Of a stretch of DNA of 64,000 bases, positions 47,578-59,501 are shown piece after piece. A model generated the notes under the pieces. That model was not told the origin of the DNA, did not search any database, and saw only the letters and a list, made by a program, of their open reading frames with translations. The position numbers and the translations under genes were made by a program. This DNA comes from Escherichia phage moha: sequence record MN850590.1; one strand, 5' to 3'. Numbering within the stretch: position 1 is the first letter of the stretch; each line of letters opens with the position of its first letter.

Positions 47578-48664
<1,087 letters not shown>

Positions 48665-48856
48665 ATGAAACGATTATATGAAGTGATTGAGGCCATCGAA
48701 CATCATAAAGAATATTTGTTTGTAGCCTGGCCTTTAGTAAATGGACAGTTCGGTATTGATGTGCTGGACTATGAGCATGAAGAACGTTTGGACGGCGGTA
48801 TATTTGATAACGTCGACCAGGCAATTGAATGGTTAAATGAAAACTATGTACGATAA
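48665..48856 (+). CDS. hypothetical protein
   Basis: 63 aa. Confidence 0.4.
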   Translation: MKRLYEVIEAIEHHKEYLFVAWPLVNGQFGIDVLDYEHEERLDGGIFDNVDQAIEWLNENYVR

Positions 48857-49061
48857 ACATCATGAAATCGAAGATGAAGCATACAAAATGCTTCGTAAAC
48901 TAGTGGGACTTAATATGAGTCCTACATTAATCAACAAACTCGCAGGAATTCGTAATGATCTGAATACTCGTTACAAAGGTGAATATCATGTAGAGTTTGT
49001 TCCTGTAGGTGAACCAACCGAGCGATTTGTTGTTCGAGTTAAAGTAAATACTGTGCACTGA
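48837..49061 (+). CDS. hypothetical protein
   Basis: 74 aa. Confidence 0.4.
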   Translation: MKTMYDKHHEIEDEAYKMLRKLVGLNMSPTLINKLAGIRNDLNTRYKGEYHVEFVPVGEPTERFVVRVKVNTVH

Positions 49062-49068
49062 GGTAATT

Positions 49069-49344
49069 ATGTTCCCAACTTATTCTGAAATTGTAAAGGT
49101 AGTCTTCAGTCAGATTATTGCTAATAATATGTTTGAAGTGCTTGATAATGCAGCCGAACTCAGAGTTCATGCTCAAGTAACTCATGTACTTAATGCTTTG
49201 CTCCCAGACCAAGTAGATTCTATTGCTATTACTCTTCTCCCTGGATCTGCACACGTCATCGTGGTATTTGATCTTGACGGCGATTTAGTTATCCAATGTG
49301 ATATCAATTTCGGTACACAAAAAATTGAATGCAAAGCAATTTAA
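49069..49344 (+). CDS. hypothetical protein
   Basis: 91 aa. Confidence 0.45.
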   Translation: MFPTYSEIVKVVFSQIIANNMFEVLDNAAELRVHAQVTHVLNALLPDQVDSIAITLLPGSAHVIVVFDLDGDLVIQCDINFGTQKIECKAI

Positions 49345-49346
49345 TG

Positions 49347-49376
49347 GTTTACAACGCGGTGGAGTTGTGATATGAT
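49347..49376 (+). promoter_or_regulatory. T4-type early promoter
   Basis: GTTTACA, 18 bp spacer, TATGAT. Confidence 0.5.
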
Positions 49377-49405
49377 TAACTCTACCGACAAATGAGGAAA
49401 TCGAA

Positions 49406-49642
49406 ATGCTAAGTGAAAACCCAATTACAGTACACGAATTTCAGATTAAAGTAAAAGAATTTGCTCAAGCACTCATCAATAAAGTGTCTGAACGTTTCCA
49501 AGATGCAACATTACGAGTTATTCAAGAATCTCCACGTTCTTTTCTCATAATCGTTAATCCTAAAGATGGTGACCAGATTACTAGCCTTAAATTAGGCAGT
49601 GACGGTTTAGTTGAAGCAACTCGCGTATACGGAACACTATAA
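49406..49642 (+). CDS. hypothetical protein
   Basis: 78 aa. Confidence 0.45.
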   Translation: MLSENPITVHEFQIKVKEFAQALINKVSERFQDATLRVIQESPRSFLIIVNPKDGDQITSLKLGSDGLVEATRVYGTL

Positions 49643-50911: not shown

Positions 50912-51035
50912 TATAAATAACTATATGAAGAGAACACTCTTCTAAGCGGTAGCCTACAACTGAGAGACTTGTCGAAAGAAGGTGAAATTCAGACGAACGT
51001 GGCTACTAAATATTATCTCGAATTGAGAATTTAAA

Positions 51036-51284
51036 ATGATTAAACAATTACAACACGCTCTTGAACTGCAACGTAACGCATGGAATAATGGTCACGAAAA
51101 CTACGGCGCGTCGATTGATGTTGAAGCCGAAGCACTGGAAATCCTGCATTATTTCAAACATCTGAACCCGGTACAGGCAGCTTTGGCCTCTGAACTGGAA
51201 GCAAAAGATGAACTGAAATATGCTAAGCCTTTGGCTTCTGCAGCTCGTAAAGCAGTACGTCATTTTGTTATTACCCTAAAGTAA
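51036..51284 (+). CDS. rIII: rIII lysis-inhibition accessory protein
   Basis: 82 aa, same as T4 rIII; position after gene 31. Confidence 0.75.
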   Translation: MIKQLQHALELQRNAWNNGHENYGASIDVEAEALEILHYFKHLNPVQAALASELEAKDELKYAKPLASAARKAVRHFVITLK

Positions 51285-51315
51285 GTTAAATCGAGGAGCC
51301 GTCGAACTGTCTGAT

Positions 51316-51335
51316 TAATGATTTGCGAATCATTA
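51316..51335 (+). other. stable hairpin (8 bp stem, 4-nt loop)
   Basis: taatgatt-tgcg-aatcatta just downstream of rIII. Confidence 0.4.
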
Positions 51336-51362
51336 TAGTTTTAAGTCCCCGGCAGTTTTACG

Positions 51363-51391
51363 GTGTACCTCTTGAATGTATTTTGTACTAT
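51363..51391 (+). promoter_or_regulatory. T4-type early promoter with long leader
   Basis: GTGTAC, 17 bp spacer, TACTAT; about 155 nt before the next ATG. Confidence 0.45.
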
Positions 51392-51547
51392 CACGCGTCA
51401 GAAAAAGGTTATCTGTCTAAGTCGTGGTTGGTATGATGACGGGTTTATGGTTATCCTGTCGTTAAATATCCAAAACCTATGTTCCCCTTGAGGGCTTGCG
51501 CAGGCAATGTCAATAAGTCCTGCATTTTCATTTAAAGAGAATTTATA

Positions 51548-51727
51548 ATGGCAAAACAAGCTAAAGCAAAGAAAGCAGTTGAAAAGAAAGTTGATGGTAC
51601 CTCTAAACGCGCTGGATACAAGCGTGGGTCGAACTCTCGTATTAATCAAACAGTTGAGAAGATCATGCGCAGAGCACGTGCAGTTCTTCGAGATGATGCT
51701 TCTCGTTTTGGAAAGGTTGTTGCATAA
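51548..51727 (+). CDS. hypothetical small basic protein (30.9 position)
   Basis: 59 codons, Lys/Arg-rich; followed by a strong terminator; below ORF-track cutoff. Confidence 0.35.
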   Translation: MAKQAKAKKAVEKKVDGTSKRAGYKRGSNSRINQTVEKIMRRARAVLRDDASRFGKVVA

Positions 51728-51732
51728 TTTTA

Positions 51733-51755
51733 GGGAGACTTCGGTCTCCCTTTTG
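51733..51755 (+). terminator. intrinsic terminator
   Basis: gggagac-ttcg-gtctccc then TTTT. Confidence 0.7.
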
Positions 51756-51787
51756 TGCGTTTAGGGCAGAAAAAGTTTAAAAAAAAT

Positions 51788-51816
51788 GTTTACTCTCCTG
51801 TAGGATGTGTTACTAT
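51788..51816 (+). promoter_or_regulatory. T4-type early promoter
   Basis: GTTTAC, 17 bp spacer, TACTAT. Confidence 0.55.
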
Positions 51817-51858
51817 AGACTTGTACCACCTAATCGATAAAACAAACCGGAGAACAAA

Positions 51859-52227
51859 ATGAAAATCAATCTGAACTCATACATCAAATGTAAAGACCAC
51901 GACGGTTATAAAGCTATCGAAATTAAAGAATTCCAGTGGATGTTATACAAAGAGCAATTTGAGTTCGTAGGTTGTATGACCCCTGAAGGTCCTTCAGATG
52001 ATTTCTCTTGGAAAATTGTGTTAGCAAACTTTTTCACAGGTGACACATATGAATTAAAAACTATTATTACCGGTAAAATTCGTTCAGAAACATATGTTGA
52101 CGAAGAAACTGGTTACTCTGAAGATGTTACATGGTATCAAAATGGACGCATTACAGCAGATAACCTGATCGAAAAAATGAAAGCCAAAGGTGTTTTAAAT
52201 TTAGACAATTGGATTAAAGTTGCATAA
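51859..52227 (+). CDS. hypothetical protein
   Basis: 122 aa. Confidence 0.5.
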   Translation: MKINLNSYIKCKDHDGYKAIEIKEFQWMLYKEQFEFVGCMTPEGPSDDFSWKIVLANFFTGDTYELKTIITGKIRSETYVDEETGYSEDVTWYQNGRITADNLIEKMKAKGVLNLDNWIKVA

Positions 52228-52231
52228 AACA

Positions 52232-52260
52232 GTTTACTTTGGTACAGGTTATGTTATTAT
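52232..52260 (+). promoter_or_regulatory. T4-type early promoter
   Basis: GTTTAC, 17 bp spacer, TATTAT; palindrome ggtacagg/cctgtacc spans the -10. Confidence 0.55.
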
Positions 52261-52301
52261 AGACCTGTACCAACAAACAACTTAAACATCTGGAGAATAA
52301 A

Positions 52302-52667
52302 ATGAACTACACCAACTTCGAACGTAAATATGTTTCTAACGGTATTGCTGGTTCTTCTGAAGTTATTTGCTTATGGAAACACGAAAACGGTACAGTTTGT
52401 GAAATCGAACAGTGCATGACTCCTAATTACGTTTATATGCGATTTGAAAATGGTATCACGGTTTCAATCACGATGGAAGGTTCAAATTTTAAAATTGCAT
52501 TAGATGATGATTTCCGTCAGCGTGATTTAGGTACTCATCCTTGCTGGAATGGTGTTAATCGTAAACTTCTGGTTAAAACTTGGATTCGTCATATCCTGAG
52601 CAACCGAGCTAAACCTGAACATCTCGAAGCAATCTTTGATGTAGTTCTTAACGAATTTGATATCTAA
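52302..52667 (+). CDS. hypothetical protein
   Basis: 121 aa. Confidence 0.5.
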   Translation: MNYTNFERKYVSNGIAGSSEVICLWKHENGTVCEIEQCMTPNYVYMRFENGITVSITMEGSNFKIALDDDFRQRDLGTHPCWNGVNRKLLVKTWIRHILSNRAKPEHLEAIFDVVLNEFDI

Positions 52668-52674
52668 ATTAATT

Positions 52675-52690
52675 GGGAGCTTCGGCTCCC
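52675..52690 (+). other. UUCG tetraloop RNA hairpin (no T-run)
   Basis: gggagc-ttcg-gctccc immediately before the RBS of the next gene. Confidence 0.5.
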
Positions 52691-52702
52691 ATTGAGGAAA
52701 TT

Positions 52703-53317
52703 ATGTTTAAAGTTAATACTTTTTATAAAATGAATTTTAAAAATGGGGATATTACTCCACGCCTTAAAAACATGTTCTCATATGACCTTATCGAGCCTTT
52801 TGAAGTTTTAGAAGTTACTGATGCCGGCTCGGTTTGTGAAATTAGAACTTCTGAAGGTAAAATTTATCAGGCCGGTGTTGGTAAATTCAGTAATTGTTTT
52901 ACTTTAATATTCTCGACCGATTTAGATGAGCATTTTATTGAATGTCCTAACCCTAAGGTCTATGAAGTTCCACATCAAGAAACTAAGAAAAATGGACCGC
53001 ACGAATATACGAAGGTTGAAACTCCTCACGGCGTGATGTGGCGACATAACTCTCCTTTTGGAAGTAAAGGAACATTTGCTCAACTGGCTAAGCCCTACGA
53101 CGATGAAAAATATGTAGTAGTCCTTTTATCTGAACAGGGTACTCAAGACCGTGGATGCCAGCGTTCCGGTTTATTGAGTGAACTCGAAGCTCATAACCTA
53201 GCACGTGAATTCGTTGAGAAAAATCCTGGTTCTGAAGCTCTAGTCATGAAAGCAATTACTCAATATATCACTGCTCAACCTGTTGTTCATCCGGTAGAAA
53301 TTAATTTCATTAAGTAG
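52703..53317 (+). CDS. hypothetical protein
   Basis: 204 aa from ATG behind GAGGA RBS. Confidence 0.5.
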   Translation: MFKVNTFYKMNFKNGDITPRLKNMFSYDLIEPFEVLEVTDAGSVCEIRTSEGKIYQAGVGKFSNCFTLIFSTDLDEHFIECPNPKVYEVPHQETKKNGPHEYTKVETPHGVMWRHNSPFGSKGTFAQLAKPYDDEKYVVVLLSEQGTQDRGCQRSGLLSELEAHNLAREFVEKNPGSEALVMKAITQYITAQPVVHPVEINFIK

Positions 53318-53347
53318 TGTACATCCAAGGACGGATTAGAGTATAAT
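53317..53347 (+). promoter_or_regulatory. T4-type early promoter
   Basis: GTGTACA, TATAAT. Confidence 0.55.
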
Positions 53348-53371
53348 GATTTCTTTAGTAAGTGGAAAAAT

Positions 53372-53569
53372 ATGAAATTTTTAATAGCACAAACAGTCCA
53401 ATTAAAAGGTGTTGGAATCCCTGGGATGATTTTTAAAGTTCTCAACGAATTTAAAACTGCCGCTGGAATTATCAATGAAGCGTATGCTGTTCAATGGGTT
53501 GATGGGACTTCTGACATACGTATGGGTAAAGAGTTATCTCCTATTAAAGGGTTGAAACATGTTGAATAA
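53372..53569 (+). CDS. hypothetical protein
   Basis: 65 aa. Confidence 0.4.
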   Translation: MKFLIAQTVQLKGVGIPGMIFKVLNEFKTAAGIINEAYAVQWVDGTSDIRMGKELSPIKGLKHVE

Positions 53570-53777
53570 ATTAATCCAGAAATTGTTTGGTACGGAAATG
53601 ATTGAAGTTACTTATCGTGTAACCGACGTTTTTCCATATTACGCGGAAAACCGTTTAGAACCATACGTTACGTCAATTAAAATGCCTAAAAATGACAGAA
53701 ATTTATCTATCGAAGACCGTATACCTGGATACGGACATTGGGCTGATGTTGAAATTATAAGTGTTAAAGATGTCTGA
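53559..53777 (+). CDS. hypothetical protein
   Basis: 72 aa. Confidence 0.4.
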   Translation: MLNKLIQKLFGTEMIEVTYRVTDVFPYYAENRLEPYVTSIKMPKNDRNLSIEDRIPGYGHWADVEIISVKDV

Positions 53778-54228
53778 ATTAGAAATAAGAAGTAATTTCA
53801 AATGGCCGTCATGTGCATTAAGTAACTTTGCTCAATGGCCTTTTGTTATGGATGGTATTCAATTCGGAGGTCTTGAAGGATTTCTCCAAGGATGTAAGGT
53901 GAAAAATGTTGAACAACAAAGACGTATATTTGGGCTGTCAGGACTGGCCGCACAGCAAGCTGGAAGGTCTTATGCAAGAGCTCAGGACCGTGGGACTCTC
54001 TTCTGGTTAGGAGTTCCATTTTCAAGATACTCTGAAGCGTGGAAAGAATTATACACAAATGCATATTTTGAAGCCGCGATCCAAAACAAGGGGTTTCGTG
54101 ATGCCTTACAAGCCTCTAAAGGAAAAATTTTGAAGCACAGCATGGCCAGCCACCTAACAAAAGATGATACAATATTAACCGAAGCCGAATTTATTGATGT
54201 GTTAAACCTATTAAGAGACTCTTTATGA
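53770..54228 (+). CDS. NADAR/YbiA-like domain protein
   Basis: LSNFAQWPFVMDGIQFGGLEGFLQGCK resembles the YbiA/NADAR core FSNF..WP..DG...E.FQ..K; about 152 aa from ATG 53770. Confidence 0.65.
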   Translation: MSELEIRSNFKWPSCALSNFAQWPFVMDGIQFGGLEGFLQGCKVKNVEQQRRIFGLSGLAAQQAGRSYARAQDRGTLFWLGVPFSRYSEAWKELYTNAYFEAAIQNKGFRDALQASKGKILKHSMASHLTKDDTILTEAEFIDVLNLLRDSL

Positions 54229-55049
54229 AGCCTACTATTTTGACTGATATTGATGGTGTATGTTTAAGCTGGCAATCTGGACTTCCTTATTTTGCCCAAA
54301 AATATAACCTTCCATTAGAACATATTTTAAAAATGATTCAGGACGAAAAATTTATTTCTCCTGGTAAACTGTTCAATACCGACGATAACCTTGGTAAACA
54401 ATTAATAGAAAAATATAATAGCTCTGATTTTATTCGTTACTTAGCGCCTTATTCTGATGCTCTTCGAGTTATCAATAAACTAAAAGAAGACTATAATTTT
54501 GTAGCCGTGACGGCGCTAGGTGATTCAATTGATGCTCGATTGAATAGACAATTTAATTTGAATGCTTTGTTCCCAGGCGCTTTCTCTGAAGTAATGATGT
54601 GTGGTCATGATTCTTCAAAGGAACAATTATTCGAACTAGCTAAAACAAAATATAACGTGATTTGTTACGTTGACGATTTAGCTCATCATTGTGACCATGC
54701 AGCAGAAATTCTTAATGTACCGATTTATTGGTTGGCTCGTGGTGAACGTGATGCCATTCCTCGTACTGCACAACGTGTACACACGTGGGATGATATTGAA
54801 TCTCGTTTGGTTCTGCCTAAGAATAATTCAGATTCAGATCGTGAAGACCTTTTAAAACGATTGGCGGATTTGCTTAAAGAATCTGGTGCAACAAGCCCAG
54901 GTGCATGGCCTAATCAAATTGGTGGCCCCTCGACAACACGTACTCCATATACCTGGCGAACCCCAGGACCAACTGATATGCAGCCGTGGTGGACGATTCA
55001 AAACTTTCCTTTAGATTCGTCTAAATGGACTTGGTCTATAAATTGTTAA
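54225..55049 (+). CDS. HAD-superfamily phosphatase-like protein with Pro/Trp-rich C-terminal tail
   Basis: HAD motif I ILTDIDGV and later VDDL aspartates; ATGA overlap with NADAR gene. Confidence 0.6.
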   Translation: MKPTILTDIDGVCLSWQSGLPYFAQKYNLPLEHILKMIQDEKFISPGKLFNTDDNLGKQLIEKYNSSDFIRYLAPYSDALRVINKLKEDYNFVAVTALGDSIDARLNRQFNLNALFPGAFSEVMMCGHDSSKEQLFELAKTKYNVICYVDDLAHHCDHAAEILNVPIYWLARGERDAIPRTAQRVHTWDDIESRLVLPKNNSDSDREDLLKRLADLLKESGATSPGAWPNQIGGPSTTRTPYTWRTPGPTDMQPWWTIQNFPLDSSKWTWSINC

Positions 55050-55058
55050 GGGTTAATT

Positions 55059-55328
55059 ATGTTTGTAGTTCATGATATTACAGATGGCAAAAATACCACA
55101 CGTGACTACGGTCACGTTAACATGTTCTTTCGAGACTGGCCATTGTTTCGTTCAGTAAAAGACGCAGAAATATTTAAAGAGTGTGTTGAACAAGGGTTCA
55201 TCTACATTTCAGAATACTATGTTGAAGGACTCGGTAAATGGATTACAACTTATCAGAAAACGCTGAAATCGCTTCTAGATGAAGTGGCTTATAATAGAAC
55301 CGTAACCAAAATCGAGGACATCAAATGA
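55059..55328 (+). CDS. hypothetical protein
   Basis: 89 aa; overlaps ligase start. Confidence 0.45.
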   Translation: MFVVHDITDGKNTTRDYGHVNMFFRDWPLFRSVKDAEIFKECVEQGFIYISEYYVEGLGKWITTYQKTLKSLLDEVAYNRTVTKIEDIK

Positions 55329-56818
55329 TTTTAGATATTTTAAACCAAATAGCTGCGATCGGTTCTACTAAAACAAAACAAGAAATCCTTAAGAAAAATA
55401 AGGACAACAAATTACTTGAACGTGTGTATCGTTTAACATATGCACGTGGTATCCAGTATTATATTAAGAAATGGCCAGGACCAGGTGAAAGGTCTCAAGC
55501 GTATGGTCTTCTTGAATTAGATGACATGTTGGATTTTATTGAGTTCACATTAGCCACTCGTAAACTCACTGGTAATGCTGCAATTAAAGAGCTCATGGGT
55601 TATATCGCTGATGGTAAACCTGATGATGTAGAAGTCCTTCGTCGTGTAATGATGCGCGACCTTGAAGTAGGTGCTTCAGTGTCTATCGCGAATAAGGTGT
55701 GGCCTGGACTTATTCAATTGCAACCACAGATGTTAGCATCTGCATATGACGAGAAATTGATTACTAAAAATATTAAATGGCCCGCATTTGCCCAATTAAA
55801 AGCAGACGGTGCTCGTTGTTTCGCTGAAGTTCGCGATGATGGTGTTCAATTCTTTTCTCGTGCCGGCAACGAATATCATGGTCTTACTCTATTAGCGGAT
55901 GAACTAATGGAAATGACTAAAGAAGCTCGTGAAAGACACCCTAATGGGGTTTTAATCGACGGTGAATTAGTTTACCATTCATTTGATATTAAAAAGGCTG
56001 TGAGCTCAGGAAATGACCTGTCGTTCTTATTTGGTGATAATGAAGAATCCGAAGAAGTACAAGTTGCGGACCGTAGCACTTCAAACGGTTTAGCAAATAA
56101 ATCTCTTCAAGGGACTATTTCTCCTAAAGAAGCTGAAGGTATGGTTCTTCAAGCCTGGGACTATGTTCCTTTAGATGAAGTCTATTCTGATGGCAAAATT
56201 AAAGGTCAGAAATACGATGTTCGTTTTGCTGCTCTTGAAAATATGGCTGAAGGCTTTAAACGAATTGAGCCAATTGAAAATCAGTTAGTTCGTAATCTTG
56301 ACGAAGCTAAAGTGGTTTATAAAAAATATGTTGACCAAGGTCTTGAAGGTATTATCCTTAAAAACCGTGATTCATATTGGGAAAACAAACGTTCTAAGAA
56401 CCTAATTAAATTTAAAGAAGTTATTGATATCGCTTTAGAAGTTGTAGGATACTATGAACACTCTAAAGACCCTAACAAATTAGGTGGTGTCGAACTCGTA
56501 TCACGTTGTCGTCGTATTACAACCGATTGTGGTTCAGGGTTTAAAGATACAACTCATAAAACAGTTGATGGTGTAAAGGTTCTTATTCCTTTAGATGAGC
56601 GACATGATTTGGACCGTGAACGATTAATGACCGAAGCTCGTGAAGGTAAATTGATTGGACGTATTGCTGATTGTGAATGCAATGGTTGGGTTCATTCTAA
56701 AGGACGTGAAGGCACTGTAGGTATTTTCCTCCCAATTATTAAAGGGTTCCGTTTTGATAAAACAGAAGCGGATTCGTTTGAAGACGTATTTGGACCGTGG
56801 TCCCAGACAGGTTTATAA
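55325..56818 (+). CDS. 30: ATP-dependent DNA ligase
   Basis: adenylation motif I KADGARC; 497 aa (T4 gp30 487). Confidence 0.92.
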   Translation: MILDILNQIAAIGSTKTKQEILKKNKDNKLLERVYRLTYARGIQYYIKKWPGPGERSQAYGLLELDDMLDFIEFTLATRKLTGNAAIKELMGYIADGKPDDVEVLRRVMMRDLEVGASVSIANKVWPGLIQLQPQMLASAYDEKLITKNIKWPAFAQLKADGARCFAEVRDDGVQFFSRAGNEYHGLTLLADELMEMTKEARERHPNGVLIDGELVYHSFDIKKAVSSGNDLSFLFGDNEESEEVQVADRSTSNGLANKSLQGTISPKEAEGMVLQAWDYVPLDEVYSDGKIKGQKYDVRFAALENMAEGFKRIEPIENQLVRNLDEAKVVYKKYVDQGLEGIILKNRDSYWENKRSKNLIKFKEVIDIALEVVGYYEHSKDPNKLGGVELVSRCRRITTDCGSGFKDTTHKTVDGVKVLIPLDERHDLDRERLMTEAREGKLIGRIADCECNGWVHSKGREGTVGIFLPIIKGFRFDKTEADSFEDVFGPWSQTGL

Positions 56819-57006
56819 TGAAAGCTTATTTAGAAACAGTTATTGTAGCTAAGAAGGATGGTGGAGATGTTTCCACCTCTTGCTCTCAGATTATATTAGA
56901 TTTTCCTAATGAAAATTCGTATCGGGTTTTCGTAGATAACGTTAATGGGTACGAAAAAGGCCCTAATTTTGAAGTTTATCGTACTTTGCTCCCGATTGTG
57001 GATTAA
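56818..57006 (+). CDS. hypothetical protein
   Basis: 62 aa; TAATG overlap with ligase stop. Confidence 0.4.
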   Translation: MKAYLETVIVAKKDGGDVSTSCSQIILDFPNENSYRVFVDNVNGYEKGPNFEVYRTLLPIVD

Positions 57007-57026
57007 GAGCCTTCGGGCTCTTTTTG
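57006..57026 (+). terminator. intrinsic terminator
   Basis: gagcc-ttcg-ggctc then TTTTT. Confidence 0.7.
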
Positions 57027-57061
57027 GCATAAATATAAATTATTACTAAAAGGAAAACACT

Positions 57062-59149
57062 ATGTCTGAACAAATAAACGAAGTGTTTGAATCTGAAGGC
57101 AGTCTTCCTGTCGTCAATTTGAACCCTAAAGCTAAAGTTCCACAAGTCTGGAAAATTGGTGATATCGATACAAATATTGTAGTTCGTTTATTCTCTTACC
57201 TTTCCGAAGGCGACGCTGTAAAACAAGTTAAACTTGGCGACAAATACGCTCATGTTGTTATTATGAGTCTGTCTGAAAAGGGTAATCTCGCTGAATTGAA
57301 AAATGGCCTTGGTCCTGCTCCTATTGATGCAATCAACACCATTTTCAATACAGTATATGAACAAGTTAAAGCTCTTCGTATGGATGCAGTTCTGTTCCGA
57401 TTCCCTACCAAGAAATTGAAAGGACGTGGACAACAGCTTCAAACTCTTCTTGCTCGTTTAGTTTCTACTAAAACCGGTGGTCGTTTTAAAGTATTGTCGG
57501 CAATGTATCAATTCACAGGTAAACACACCTATGTGATGATGGTTCGTAAAAATGCCAACATTGAAGATATTAAAGGCATCCCTAACATTAACACAGAGTT
57601 GTACACGAAAGTAGATTCTGATGTTGGCGAAGTTTATGTGAGTAAAAAGACTGGCGAAACGGTTACCAAAGAAACTGCTATCGCTGGTTCTATTGCCGCG
57701 GTAGAAGAAAAACGTAAAGATAAGCCTGTTATTGCTCGCACCAAAATTTCTCGTCGTGCTATTGCAGCAAGTCAATCTTTAGAAGCTGACCGACAAGAAG
57801 GTGAGTTATTCCAGAAATACGAAAATTCTGCTAAAGAAGTTAGTGGCCCAGCTACAGCCGAATTACTTCCTGAAGCATATGAAATCGTACTAGCCCAAGC
57901 ATCGTCCACAGCAAAAGGCACTTTAGTTGCTGATATCGAAAATAAGATTTATAATCGTATTGATGAATCCTTTAAATTTGCTGATGAAGTTTCTTATGGT
58001 AGTGTTATTAAGCCGACTTTAGAAAAGTTTGCTAAGAAAATTAAAACCGAAAAAACAACATCTGTTAAAGCATTAGCTGCTTTTGTTGAAGCTGCAAATG
58101 AAATTGCAGACTCTATTAAAGACGAATGGTTTGAAGATTTTAGACGTGATAATTTCCAATTGCCTGACGACGTTTTAGCTGAAGTATCTGAAAGAACTTG
58201 GAAACAACGTAAATCAGCGTTCTTGTCTAATGTGATGTATACTTATGCACGAGAATCGGCTAGAGGCACCTTTAATATAACAATGAATCGGGACCCTAAA
58301 CAATACTCTGTTGCTGAAAAACGAGCTATTCGCGAATATGCCTCTTCTGCGTATACCGATATCAATAATATGTTGTTAGGCCGGTATAAACCGGATTTTT
58401 ATGATGTTGCAGATGAAGATGAAGTTAAACGCGCTATTGATGGTCTTGATTCGGCGTTTTTAAATGGAGACCGTTTACCTGAAGGACTAACGTTGTATAG
58501 AGCCCAGTCTATCAGAATGCCTATTTACGAAGCAATGGTTAAAAATAAGGTATTCTACTTCAGAAACTATGTTTCTACTTCATTAGCTCCTATTATTTTT
58601 GGTGGGTTTAAAGAGAACGTTGCCCTTGGACTTGCTCCTGAAGAAGTTCGCAAAGAGCTTAACATTGACAATAATGACGAAGGTGTTACTATTTCTCCTA
58701 GTCAAGTAAGAACAGCTATGCATGCACCAGAACAAATCCGTGTTAACGTTGGATGGGCTATCGATGGCGCCCATAAAGTTAACGTGATTTACCCGGGTCA
58801 GTTGAGTAATCACCCTAATGAGCAAGAAATTATTTTGCCTAGAGGCATTCTCTTGCAGATAAATAAAATTACAGATGCGTCATCTGACACTGGTGCAGGT
58901 TTAGAATCCAACCTTAAATTTATTCAAGCTGAAGTCATGTCCTCGGACCAGTTGGACGAAGCTGTCATTTACGATGGTGATGTTCTCATGGAAACAGGCG
59001 AGGTAGTTGCTATGACGGGTGAAATCGAATCAGATGAGCCGGTATCTTTTGCCTCATTTGTAGAAAAAACTAGTGCACCTAAAGGTTTGAAATTGTTAGC
59101 ATCTTTAATGGATTTAGAATCAGTTCCGTTTAAATTTATCCAAGGATAG
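57062..59149 (+). CDS. alt: Alt-like ADP-ribosyltransferase (virion-packaged)
   Basis: 695 aa (T4 Alt 682); position between ligase 30 and baseplate gene 54. Confidence 0.7.
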   Translation: MSEQINEVFESEGSLPVVNLNPKAKVPQVWKIGDIDTNIVVRLFSYLSEGDAVKQVKLGDKYAHVVIMSLSEKGNLAELKNGLGPAPIDAINTIFNTVYEQVKALRMDAVLFRFPTKKLKGRGQQLQTLLARLVSTKTGGRFKVLSAMYQFTGKHTYVMMVRKNANIEDIKGIPNINTELYTKVDSDVGEVYVSKKTGETVTKETAIAGSIAAVEEKRKDKPVIARTKISRRAIAASQSLEADRQEGELFQKYENSAKEVSGPATAELLPEAYEIVLAQASSTAKGTLVADIENKIYNRIDESFKFADEVSYGSVIKPTLEKFAKKIKTEKTTSVKALAAFVEAANEIADSIKDEWFEDFRRDNFQLPDDVLAEVSERTWKQRKSAFLSNVMYTYARESARGTFNITMNRDPKQYSVAEKRAIREYASSAYTDINNMLLGRYKPDFYDVADEDEVKRAIDGLDSAFLNGDRLPEGLTLYRAQSIRMPIYEAMVKNKVFYFRNYVSTSLAPIIFGGFKENVALGLAPEEVRKELNIDNNDEGVTISPSQVRTAMHAPEQIRVNVGWAIDGAHKVNVIYPGQLSNHPNEQEIILPRGILLQINKITDASSDTGAGLESNLKFIQAEVMSSDQLDEAVIYDGDVLMETGEVVAMTGEIESDEPVSFASFVEKTSAPKGLKLLASLMDLESVPFKFIQG

Positions 59150-59179
59150 TTTACAAACACATGGATGTGTGATACTATC
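59149..59179 (+). promoter_or_regulatory. T4-type early promoter
   Basis: GTTTACA, spacer palindrome cacatggatgtg, TACTAT. Confidence 0.5.
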
Positions 59180-59207
59180 ATCCAATCAACAACATGAGGA
59201 AAACGTT

Positions 59208-59501
59208 ATGAAATCTATGCTTCGCTTTAATGGTCAAGAACTAGTAGTTGAAGATGTTATCCCGGCAGATGATGTTTTTAACGAAGCTGTGATTGACGAA
59301 TTGAATCGAGTATTCCCAGGTGCATTCCATATTGCTATGGAACCTCTTAAAAACTTTCGTGACCCTGAGCACACTGATCAAATTTTTGTCGGTGTAGTGA
59401 CAGGTCATTTAGAAACAGAGGTACCAATGGTCGTATTAGTTAAATACTCTAAAGATGATACTCCATTCCGAGCACCAGCATTCCTTTCATTCCGTAAATA
59501 A
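59208..59501 (+). CDS. hypothetical protein
   Basis: 97 aa from ATG 59208. Confidence 0.45.
   Translation: MKSMLRFNGQELVVEDVIPADDVFNEAVIDELNRVFPGAFHIAMEPLKNFRDPEHTDQIFVGVVTGHLETEVPMVVLVKYSKDDTPFRAPAFLSFRK

What the first reader, a model, noticed from the sequence alone, without database searches (positions are those of the whole stretch)
53770..55049. Overlapping NADAR/YbiA-like and HAD-phosphatase gene pair upstream of DNA ligase
The 53770..54228 ORF carries the YbiA/NADAR core (SNFAQWP...DG...E.FQ..K) and its stop overlaps (ATGA) the start of a HAD-type phosphatase (DIDGV motif I). NADAR proteins act on ADP-ribose or N-glycosidic substrates and HAD enzymes dephosphorylate nucleotides or sugars. 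A coupled pair could be an ADP-ribose or NAD-derived nucleotide processing module. Possible roles are reversing ADP-ribosylation, countering an NAD- or ADP-ribose-based host defence, or precursor metabolism. The window also encodes three ADP-ribosyltransferase-like genes (modA, modB, alt).
Basis: partly seen in the sequence, partly recalled or inferred. Interest (0 to 1): 0.55.

Follow-up and report, generated by a model that had tools for sequence, protein, structure and literature searches.

The report
Known anti-DarT gene adfN beside phosphatase
The two overlapping genes are phage T4 genes 30.3 and 30.2: the first is the already characterised enzyme AdfN, which strips ADP-ribose off phage DNA to defeat the bacterial DarTG1 defence, and the second is an uncharacterised nucleotidase-like phosphatase that travels with the DNA ligase gene and is not needed for that counter-defence.

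Summary
Window 53770..54228 and 54225..55049 are two conserved genes of a T4-like coliphage (Mosigvirus, 99% identical to APCEc01, RB69-like), joined by an ATGA stop/start overlap.

The first is T4 gene 30.3. It matches Pfam Phage_30_3 at E=1.8e-69 and is 97% identical to T4 gp30.3. It has a NADAR fold, keeps E36, K43 and H123, and lacks the RB69 frameshift. T4 gp30.3 was published in 2024-25 as AdfN, a DNA ADP-ribosylglycohydrolase that is necessary and sufficient against DarTG1.

The second is T4 gene 30.2, a C1-capped HAD phosphatase with all four catalytic motifs. It is closest to the NT5C 5'(3')-deoxyribonucleotidases, and its function is unknown.

The proposed NADAR+HAD module is not supported:
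- 4-nt overlaps are routine in this genome (11 of 88 same-strand pairs).
- The HAD gene lies just upstream of the ligase gene in 63 of 63 informative T4-like loci, but has a NADAR gene nearby in only about half. In at least 10 genomes the two are 54-69 kb apart.
- In published T4 transposon sequencing on DarTG1, 30.3 is lost (log2FC -7.25) while 30.2 is neutral (-0.12, p=0.61).

Verdict: a correct rediscovery of a known anti-defence gene next to an unrelated neighbour. Interest is low.

The parts
53770..54228 (+). adfN (T4 gene 30.3): a 152-aa NADAR-fold DNA ADP-ribosylglycohydrolase, present as an intact full-length allele
   Evidence: Pfam PF08010 E=1.8e-69. 97% identical to T4 gp30.3. AF2 pLDDT 94.6. 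The top three Foldseek PDB hits are YbiA 2b3w, PnNADAR 8bau and Geobacter NADAR 8bat. No RB69-type T insertion at nt 411.
53875..53898 (+). Codons for catalytic E36 (53875-53877, GAA) and K43 (53896-53898, AAG)
   Evidence: Both residues are invariant in the 34-sequence family alignment A4. E36A and K43A impair T4 AdfN (PMC11825919).
54136..54138 (+). Codon for H123, the phage-clade histidine that replaces the Glu/Asp of other NADARs
   Evidence: Invariant in A4. This histidine is described as the distinguishing residue of gp30.3-type NADARs in PMC11125620 and PMC11825919. That it is H123 is my assignment: H123 is the only invariant histidine in A4 and lies next to the last strand (120-122) of the model.
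54225..54228 (+). ATGA stop/start overlap between 30.3 and 30.2
   Evidence: Read directly from the sequence. Conserved in T4 and RB69. The same overlap type occurs in 11 of 88 same-strand pairs in this genome.
54225..55049 (+). T4 gene 30.2: a 274-aa HAD-superfamily phosphatase with a C1 helical cap (core about residues 1-200) and a divergent, disordered Trp/Pro-rich tail (about residues 225-274)
54246..54260 (+). HAD motif I, D8-I-D10-G-V12 (nucleophile Asp plus the Asp+2 general acid/base typical of phosphatases)
   Evidence: Read from the sequence. D8, D10 and G11 are invariant in A3.
53559..53777 (+). T4 gene 30.4 homologue (72 aa), which overlaps the adfN start by 8 nt
   Evidence: phrog_2042 E=2.4e-35. 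Its T4 orthologue is the second, weaker hit on DarTG1 in T4 transposon sequencing (log2FC -1.79, padj 0.014). A polar effect on adfN is the likely cause.
55059..55328 (+). T4 gene 30.1 (DUF3045)
   Evidence: Pfam PF11243 E=1.4e-26.
55325..56818 (+). gene 30, ATP-dependent DNA ligase, the conserved downstream neighbour of gene 30.2
   Evidence: Annotated as ligase in the 99%-identical phage APCEc01. A ligase gene follows the 30.2-type HAD gene in 63 of 63 informative loci.

Best explanation
These are two independently acting early genes of a T4-like phage. They sit in one densely packed, co-directional gene string: 30.4, 30.3, 30.2, 30.1, 30 (ligase), alt.1, alt. Gene 30.3 is adfN. Its product is a NADAR-fold glycohydrolase that removes the ADP-ribose placed on guanine bases of phage DNA by the bacterial toxin DarT1, which restores replication in hosts carrying DarTG1. 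That activity is shown for the 97%-identical T4 protein and inferred here from intact catalytic residues and an intact C-terminal helix. The allele in this window is full length, unlike the frameshifted allele of its close relative RB69, so this phage is predicted to resist DarTG1. Gene 30.2 encodes a Mg-dependent HAD phosphatase with a small-molecule (C1) cap, most similar to NT5C-type 5'(3')-deoxyribonucleotidases. I infer that it dephosphorylates a nucleotide monophosphate or a similar small phosphoester in phage DNA or nucleotide metabolism, in a role tied to the ligase region rather than to AdfN. The ATGA overlap reflects genome compaction and translational coupling, which are typical of this genome, and does not indicate a shared pathway.
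For: Identity of the genes:
- Pfam PF08010 at 232 bits.
- 97% identity to T4 gp30.3 with E36 and K43 kept.
- E36, K43 and H123 are invariant across 34 homologues.
- The family profile hits YbiA 2b3w at E=7e-4.
- The AF2 model (pLDDT 94.6) has the three solved NADARs as its top three Foldseek hits.
- No RB69 frameshift.

Function of the orthologue:
- Deleting adfN makes T4 and T2 sensitive to DarTG1. Ectopic AdfN rescues RB69. The purified protein removes ADP-ribose from DarT1-modified DNA. E36A and K43A impair it (PMC11825919).
- In vitro activity was shown independently (PMC11125620).
- T4 transposon sequencing gives 30.3 a log2FC of -7.25 on DarTG1.

HAD assignment:
- All four motifs are conserved.
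- The model is confident, with a helical cap between motifs I and II.
- The best PDB sequence hit is cdN 2jao.
- Relatives that match the gp30.2 profile at E 1e-25 to 1e-30 pass the Pfam NT5C gathering score.
- 7 of 32 wider relatives hit NT5C, and the two profiles match at 100% hhalign probability.

Independence of the two genes:
- Only 20 of 79 NADAR loci have a 30.2-type HAD gene within 5 kb.
- 63 of 63 informative HAD loci have the ligase gene immediately downstream. Only 33 of 64 have a NADAR gene upstream, and only 17 abut it.
- 10 genomes carry both genes 54-69 kb apart.
- 4-nt overlaps make up 11 of 88 pairs.
- T4 30.2 insertions are neutral on DarTG1 (log2FC -0.12, p=0.61, 71 sites) and in LB versus M9.
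Against: AdfN from T4 works fully only during T-even infection, and the authors propose an unidentified T-even factor. Gene 30.2 is adjacent in T4, T2 and RB69, and no 30.2-type relative was found outside T4-like phages among the named hits. It was therefore a natural candidate, and it has not been tested directly by clean deletion or co-expression. The enzymatic activity and substrate of gp30.2 are entirely inferred. The window protein itself does not reach the Pfam HAD_2 or NT5C thresholds. Neither activity was measured for the proteins of this particular phage.
Confidence: 0.85

Rival explanations
1. The pair is a functional module. gp30.2 is the unidentified T-even-specific factor that potentiates AdfN, or it processes the ADP-ribose that AdfN releases.
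For: The two genes share an ATGA overlap and are adjacent in T4, T2, RB69 and this phage. AdfN from T4 needs some T-even factor for full activity in vivo. Named gp30.2-type relatives are all from T4-like phages.
Against: T4 30.2 transposon mutants are neutral on DarTG1 while 30.3 mutants are eliminated. Adjacency is limited to part of the family, and at least 10 genomes keep the two genes 54-69 kb apart. The HAD gene's invariant partner is the ligase gene. Such overlaps are commonplace in this genome. AdfN alone is active in vitro. The cap and the closest families point to nucleotide monophosphates, not ADP-ribose.
Confidence: 0.04
2. gp30.2 is a DNA-end-healing phosphatase, for example a 3'-phosphatase, that prepares nicks for the adjacent DNA ligase, by analogy with the HAD phosphatase domain of polynucleotide kinase-phosphatase.
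For: The HAD gene is followed by the ligase gene in 63 of 63 informative loci, and the two are sometimes directly overlapping. Motif I is the DxDG(V/T) type seen in phosphatases. The analogy to the T4 Pnk and PNKP phosphatase domains comes from my own knowledge.
Against: The model has an approximately 80-residue helical C1 cap over the active site. In HAD enzymes such a cap usually restricts access to small substrates, whereas phosphatases that act on macromolecules are capless (general knowledge of the family). The nearest sequence family is NT5C nucleotidases. The phage already encodes Pnk (annotated in APCEc01). 30.2 is dispensable in T4.
Confidence: 0.08
3. The NADAR mainly serves the phage's own ADP-ribosylation programme by reversing or limiting Alt/ModA/ModB modifications, or it degrades soluble ADP-ribose-derived immune signals such as those of Thoeris, rather than repairing DNA.
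For: The window encodes modA-like, modB-like and alt genes. A 2022 comparative study proposed that phage NADARs target soluble ADP-ribose derivatives and noted that they are co-expressed early with the ADP-ribosyltransferases (PMC9503650).
Against: Direct experiments show DNA de-ADP-ribosylation and a specific DarTG1 phenotype, with no effect on DarTG2. The papers report NADARs as specific for guanine adducts. adfN is dispensable on plain K-12. Many phages carry the NADAR gene far from alt.
Confidence: 0.05

Closest known systems
AdfN of phage T4 (gp30.3, anti-DarT factor NADAR; Johannesman et al. 2025, PMC11825919)
   Same: It is the orthologue: 97% amino-acid identity, the same 152-aa length, the same E36, K43 and H123, the same C-terminal helix, and the same genomic position between 30.4 and 30.2.
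   Different: The genomic background is Mosigvirus (RB69-like) rather than Tequatrovirus. There are five amino-acid substitutions. Activity has not been measured for this allele.
AdfN allele of phage RB69 (frameshifted, DarTG1-sensitive)
   Same: This is the closest genomic relative. The region is 93-100% identical at nucleotide level, with the same 30.2 tail type.
   Different: RB69 has a T insertion at nt 411 that truncates the last 15 residues. The window lacks this insertion.
DarG1-type NADAR antitoxins (Geobacter lovleyi 8bat) and PnNADAR (8bau)
   Same: Same fold and same Glu/Lys catalytic pair (PMC11825919).
   Different: About 16-18% identity. It lacks the DarG1 N-terminal extension. 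It has His where these proteins have Asp or Glu in the last strand. It is not encoded next to a DarT toxin, and the T4 protein cannot replace DarG1 in uninfected cells.
E. coli YbiA (2b3w), riboflavin-intermediate N-glycosidase
   Same: It is the best structural match (TM 0.68) and the only significant PDB sequence hit. It shares the SNF...DG...E..FQ..K motif.
   Different: YbiA is a housekeeping clade of the superfamily. The catalytic third residue differs. Identity is 18%.
NT5C family 5'(3')-deoxyribonucleotidases (cdN/mdN; PF06941; 2jao, 2i7d, 1q92, 3bwv)
   Same: Same HAD core plus helical C1 cap. Same DxDGV motif I. This family gives the best PDB sequence hit and is among the best fold hits. 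Distant gp30.2 relatives pass the NT5C Pfam threshold.
   Different: The window protein does not reach the NT5C threshold itself. Identity is about 16-19%. It carries an extra, hypervariable and disordered C-terminal tail. Its substrate is unknown.

Membership tests
gp30.3-type NADAR (Pfam PF08010 Phage_30_3) / AdfN | Scores above the curated threshold of the family model over its full length | tested here: met
   232.3 bits against a cut-off of 36, covering model positions 1-138 of 138.
NADAR superfamily | YbiA/NADAR fold: core helices flanked by small beta-sheets | tested here: met
   AF2 pLDDT 94.6. The only Foldseek PDB hits with probability of 0.98 or more are the three NADAR structures 2b3w, 8bau and 8bat.
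NADAR superfamily | Direct match to the general NADAR model PF08719 | tested here: not met
   No PF08719 hit at E<=1 for the window protein. The link to the superfamily comes from the family profile hitting YbiA at E=7e-4, from one homologue (P0181) that carries both PF08010 and PF08719, and from the fold.
NADAR superfamily / AdfN | Catalytic Glu and Lys (E36 and K43 in T4 numbering), plus the clade-specific His in the last strand | tested here: met
   All three are present and invariant in 34 homologues. I assign the clade-specific His to H123 because it is the only invariant histidine and sits by the last strand of the model.
AdfN (functional allele) | Intact C-terminal helix, with no RB69-type frameshift | tested here: met
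   The protein is the full 152 aa. The nucleotide alignment shows no T insertion at position 411.
AdfN | Removes ADP-ribose from guanine in DNA and confers resistance to DarTG1 | not testable with these tools
   Shown only for the T4 orthologue (PMC11825919; PMC11125620; transposon sequencing).
HAD superfamily phosphatase | Four catalytic motifs: I DxDx(T/V), II T/S, III K, IV DD | tested here: met
   D8-I-D10-G-V12, T96, K132 and D150-D151 are invariant or nearly invariant in 32 homologues.
HAD superfamily phosphatase | Rossmann-like HAD core fold with a cap module | tested here: met
HAD superfamily phosphatase | Scores above a curated Pfam or NCBIfam HAD model threshold | tested here: not met
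   HAD_2 gives 16 bits against a cut-off of 23.8. TIGR01428 gives 12.7 bits against 125.4.
NT5C 5'(3')-deoxyribonucleotidase family (PF06941) | Scores above the NT5C gathering threshold | tested here: inconclusive
   The window protein has no NT5C hit. 5 of 32 close homologues hit weakly, best E=0.0029. Distant relatives of the same profile reach 37 bits against a cut-off of 24.8 over the full-length model. 7 of 32 wider relatives hit, best E=3.4e-9.
NT5C 5'(3')-deoxyribonucleotidase family (PF06941) | Dephosphorylates (deoxy)nucleoside monophosphates | not testable with these tools
   No published assay was found. A full-text search for 'gp30.2' returned nothing.
Two-gene functional module (NADAR + HAD) | Adjacency conserved across the families | tested here: not met
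   20 of 79 NADAR loci have the HAD gene within 5 kb. 33 of 64 HAD loci have a NADAR gene upstream and 17 abut it. 10 genomes carry the two genes 54-69 kb apart.
Two-gene functional module (NADAR + HAD) | Both genes required for the same phenotype | tested here: not met
   Published T4 transposon sequencing on DarTG1 gives 30.3 a log2FC of -7.25 (padj 0) and 30.2 a log2FC of -0.12 (p=0.61) (bioRxiv 10.1101/2025.11.20.689424, Data S6).

The most novel reading that the evidence does not exclude
gp30.2 is a previously unrecognised, ligase-linked nucleotide phosphatase that is near-universal in T4-like phages. It would perform a specific and still unknown step, for example clearing a harmful or defence-derived nucleotide monophosphate, or healing a small phosphorylated by-product of DNA joining. 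Its hypervariable tail would mediate host- or partner-specific interactions.
Probability: 0.15. Interest if true: 0.5.

Novelty: already known. Interest (0 to 1): 0.18.

Why it matters
The main element, AdfN, is already a published anti-defence enzyme, so the finding adds no new biology on that point. It does have practical use: the intact allele predicts that this RB69-like phage, unlike RB69, resists DarTG1. The negative result narrows the search for the still-unknown T-even factor that AdfN needs, because the obvious neighbouring candidate, 30.2, can be set aside. The remaining open item is gene 30.2. It is conserved, under strong purifying selection and always next to the ligase gene in T4-like phages, yet it has no known function or phenotype.

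Tried and rejected
- Direct sequence searches of both proteins against PDB gave nothing for gp30.3 and only a marginal cdN hit for gp30.2. NCBIfam and PADLOC gave nothing useful.
- I first suspected that the T4-like (97%) AdfN in a Mosigvirus background was a recent import from Tequatrovirus. The sliding-window comparison shows the allele is RB69-like (93-97% nt), so it is not a fresh import into this phage. The gene is nevertheless anomalously similar between the two genera.
- I considered gp30.4 as the conserved partner of AdfN, because it is the second hit in the DarTG1 transposon screen. 30.4 homologues stay in the ligase region in genomes that have no NADAR gene within the 5-kb flank, and 30.4 overlaps the adfN start, so a polar effect is the simpler reading.
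- The gene neighbourhoods of distant NT5C-like relatives were uninformative: glycosyltransferase, asparagine synthase and short-chain dehydrogenase genes.
- The promoter and terminator scan of 51000..59500 was not above chance and defined no transcription-unit boundaries.
- A DAHP-synthase gene annotated in APCEc01 upstream of cd is absent from the window. My first attempt to scan those coordinates failed.

Full report
**What is there**

The window belongs to a T4-like coliphage. The region 53300..55400 is 99% identical to Escherichia phages vB_EcoM_KAW3E185 and APCEc01 (genus Mosigvirus). From gene 30.4 to the end of the ligase gene it is mostly 93-100% identical to RB69, dipping to 88% in the 30.2 tail.

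The two ORFs of the finding are present exactly as described. They run 53770..54228 (152 aa from the ATG) and 54225..55049 (274 aa), and are joined by an ATGA stop/start overlap. By position and similarity they are T4 genes 30.3 and 30.2. The gene order matches T4: 30.4, 30.3, 30.2, 30.1 (DUF3045), 30 (DNA ligase), alt.1, alt.

Both are real genes under strong purifying selection. dN/dS against T4 is 0.043 for 30.3 and 0.048 for the 30.2 core. tblastn finds them in 1510 and 1439 phage records, with the same genus spread.

**The first gene is adfN**

The protein matches Pfam Phage_30_3 (PF08010) at E=1.8e-69 and is 97% identical to T4 gp30.3.

I tested membership of the NADAR superfamily independently:
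- A profile of 34 homologues hits E. coli YbiA (2b3w) at E=7e-4, across the SNF...DG...E..FQ..K motif region.
- The AlphaFold model is confident (pLDDT 94.6).
- Its only high-probability matches in the PDB are the three solved NADARs: YbiA, the Phytophthora NADAR bound to ADP-ribose, and the Geobacter DarT-associated NADAR.
- E36, K43 and H123 are invariant in the family.
- The general NADAR Pfam model PF08719 does not hit directly, so the superfamily link rests on profile, fold and motif.

The function of the orthologue is published.
- Johannesman et al. (Nat Commun 2025, PMC11825919) renamed T4 30.3 as adfN.
- Deleting it makes T4 and T2 unable to plaque on DarTG1 hosts, and expressing it rescues RB69.
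- The purified protein removes ADP-ribose from DarT1-modified DNA.
- E36A, K43A and the RB69-type C-terminal truncation all impair it.
- An independent study showed in vitro activity on ADP-ribosyl-guanine (PMC11125620).
- A T4 transposon-sequencing screen found that 30.3 insertions are eliminated on DarTG1.

RB69 is sensitive to DarTG1 because of a T insertion at nucleotide 411. The window lacks that insertion and encodes the full C-terminal helix. I therefore predict that this RB69-like phage resists DarTG1. This is inferred, not measured.

**The second gene is an NT5C-like HAD phosphatase of unknown role**

Curated HAD models are only weakly matched: HAD_2 gives 16 bits against a cut-off of 23.8. 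Other evidence for the HAD assignment is strong:
- In an alignment of 32 homologues all four HAD motifs are conserved: D8-x-D10-G-V, T96, K132 and D150-D151.
- The model is confident for residues 1-200. It shows a helical cap inserted between motifs I and II, and a disordered Trp/Pro-rich tail.
- The only PDB sequence hit is cdN 2jao.
- More distant relatives match the gp30.2 profile at E 1e-25 to 1e-30 and pass the Pfam NT5C gathering score over the whole model.
- In a library-wide profile search, 426 proteins match at E<=1e-10. NT5C is the commonest Pfam hit among a sample of these, and the two profiles align with 100% probability.

The DxD motif and the C1 cap point to a small-molecule phosphatase, most plausibly acting on a nucleotide monophosphate. 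This is inference. No assay or phenotype is published. A full-text search for 'gp30.2' found nothing. T4 30.2 is non-essential, and its insertions are neutral in LB versus M9.

**Is the pair a module?**

Three lines of evidence say it is not.

First, the overlap is generic. In the 99%-identical phage, 31 of 88 adjacent same-strand early-gene pairs overlap, and 11 of them overlap by exactly 4 nt.

Second, synteny does not link the two genes:
- Only 20 of 79 viral loci with a gp30.3-type NADAR gene have a gp30.2-type HAD gene within 5 kb.
- Among 64 loci with a gp30.2-type HAD gene, the ligase gene lies immediately downstream in all 63 informative cases.
- A NADAR gene lies within 5 kb upstream in only 33 of the 64, and abuts the HAD gene in 17.
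- Ten genomes carry both genes 54-69 kb apart.
- The HAD gene's conserved partner is therefore the ligase. The NADAR is a neighbour in only part of the family.

Third, published genetics separates them. In the HIDEN-SEQ T4 library on DarTG1 (bioRxiv 10.1101/2025.11.20.689424, Extended Data Table 6, Data S6), exactly two genes are significant. They are 30.3 (log2FC -7.25, padj 0) and the upstream overlapping gene 30.4 (-1.79, padj 0.014). Gene 30.2, with 71 sites, is unaffected (-0.12, p=0.61).

This matters because the AdfN authors proposed that an unidentified T-even factor is needed for full AdfN activity. The neighbouring gene 30.2 would be the obvious candidate, and the transposon data argue against it.

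**Comparison with what is known, and novelty**

The NADAR gene is an orthologue of a characterised protein, so that part is already known. The coupled-module idea and any link to Alt/ModA/ModB are not supported. Those three genes are present in the window. According to the papers, NADARs act on guanine adducts in DNA.

Two things are modestly new here. One is the placement of gp30.2 as a divergent NT5C-type HAD enzyme that is invariably syntenic with the ligase gene. The other is that adfN is anomalously similar between Mosigvirus and Tequatrovirus. Its dS is 0.59, against 1.8-2.4 for all four flanking genes, and the high-identity patch spans about 53770..54370. This suggests that the gene has been exchanged between the two genera in nature. 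The same exchange was selected in the laboratory RB69 x T4 crosses on DarTG1.

**Verdict**

The main element is already known, and overall interest is low. The one open question is the function of gene 30.2.

Noticed in passing
window 53770..54370: adfN and the first ~150 nt of 30.2 are 88-92% identical in nucleotides between this Mosigvirus and T4, while the flanks are 45-80% identical. dS for adfN is 0.59, against 1.8-2.4 for 30.4, the 30.2 core, 30.1 and the ligase gene. This points to a much more recent shared ancestor for adfN, meaning natural exchange between the two genera, rather than purifying selection alone. Consistent with this, 597 phage records carry a gp30.3 that is at least 95% identical, against 148 for gp30.2.
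   Followed up: partly
window 53559..53777 (gene 30.4): The 72-aa gene that overlaps the adfN start by 8 nt corresponds to T4 30.4. That gene is the only other significant hit on DarTG1 in the published T4 transposon screen (log2FC -1.79, padj 0.014), and the paper's text does not discuss it. A polar effect on adfN is likely, but a real contribution is not excluded. 30.4 homologues remain near the ligase/HAD region in loci with no NADAR gene within the 5-kb flank (L104, L105, L110, L114).
   Followed up: partly
window 53906..54133: T4 annotates an internal, out-of-frame gene 30.3' inside 30.3. In the window the equivalent frame has an in-frame stop after 34 codons, and the two peptides differ at many positions. 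The ORF is therefore not conserved and is probably not a real gene.
   Followed up: yes
window 54897..55049 (gp30.2 residues ~225-274): The C-terminal tail of gp30.2 is predicted to be disordered, is rich in Trp, Pro and Tyr, and is hypervariable. About half of the homologues lack a tail altogether (196-220 aa). Many others end in a shared GIEYLxxQPT-like motif, which the window and RB69 versions lack. The window tail is not frameshifted relative to RB69.
   Followed up: partly
window 52673..53569: The stretch just upstream of 30.4 differs from RB69: the first 200 nt from 53372 are only 5% identical. It holds a ~204-aa ORF (phrog_17531, no Pfam match) and a 30.5 homologue, where RB69 has 30.6. 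This looks like a variable cassette region next to adfN.
   Followed up: no
protein hits P0103-P0117, P0121, P0150, P0201: Many database relatives of gp30.3 from T4-like phages are truncated (83-126 aa) or fused to other small T4 gene families (PF06919, PF06019, PF11097, PF26911). This suggests recurrent natural loss or rearrangement of adfN, as in RB69.
   Followed up: no
window ~48664..49642: Compared with the 99%-related phage APCEc01, the window lacks the ~1-kb gene annotated as phospho-2-dehydro-3-deoxyheptonate aldolase, which in APCEc01 lies between pseT and cd. There is no ORF of 100 aa or more in this interval.
   Followed up: partly
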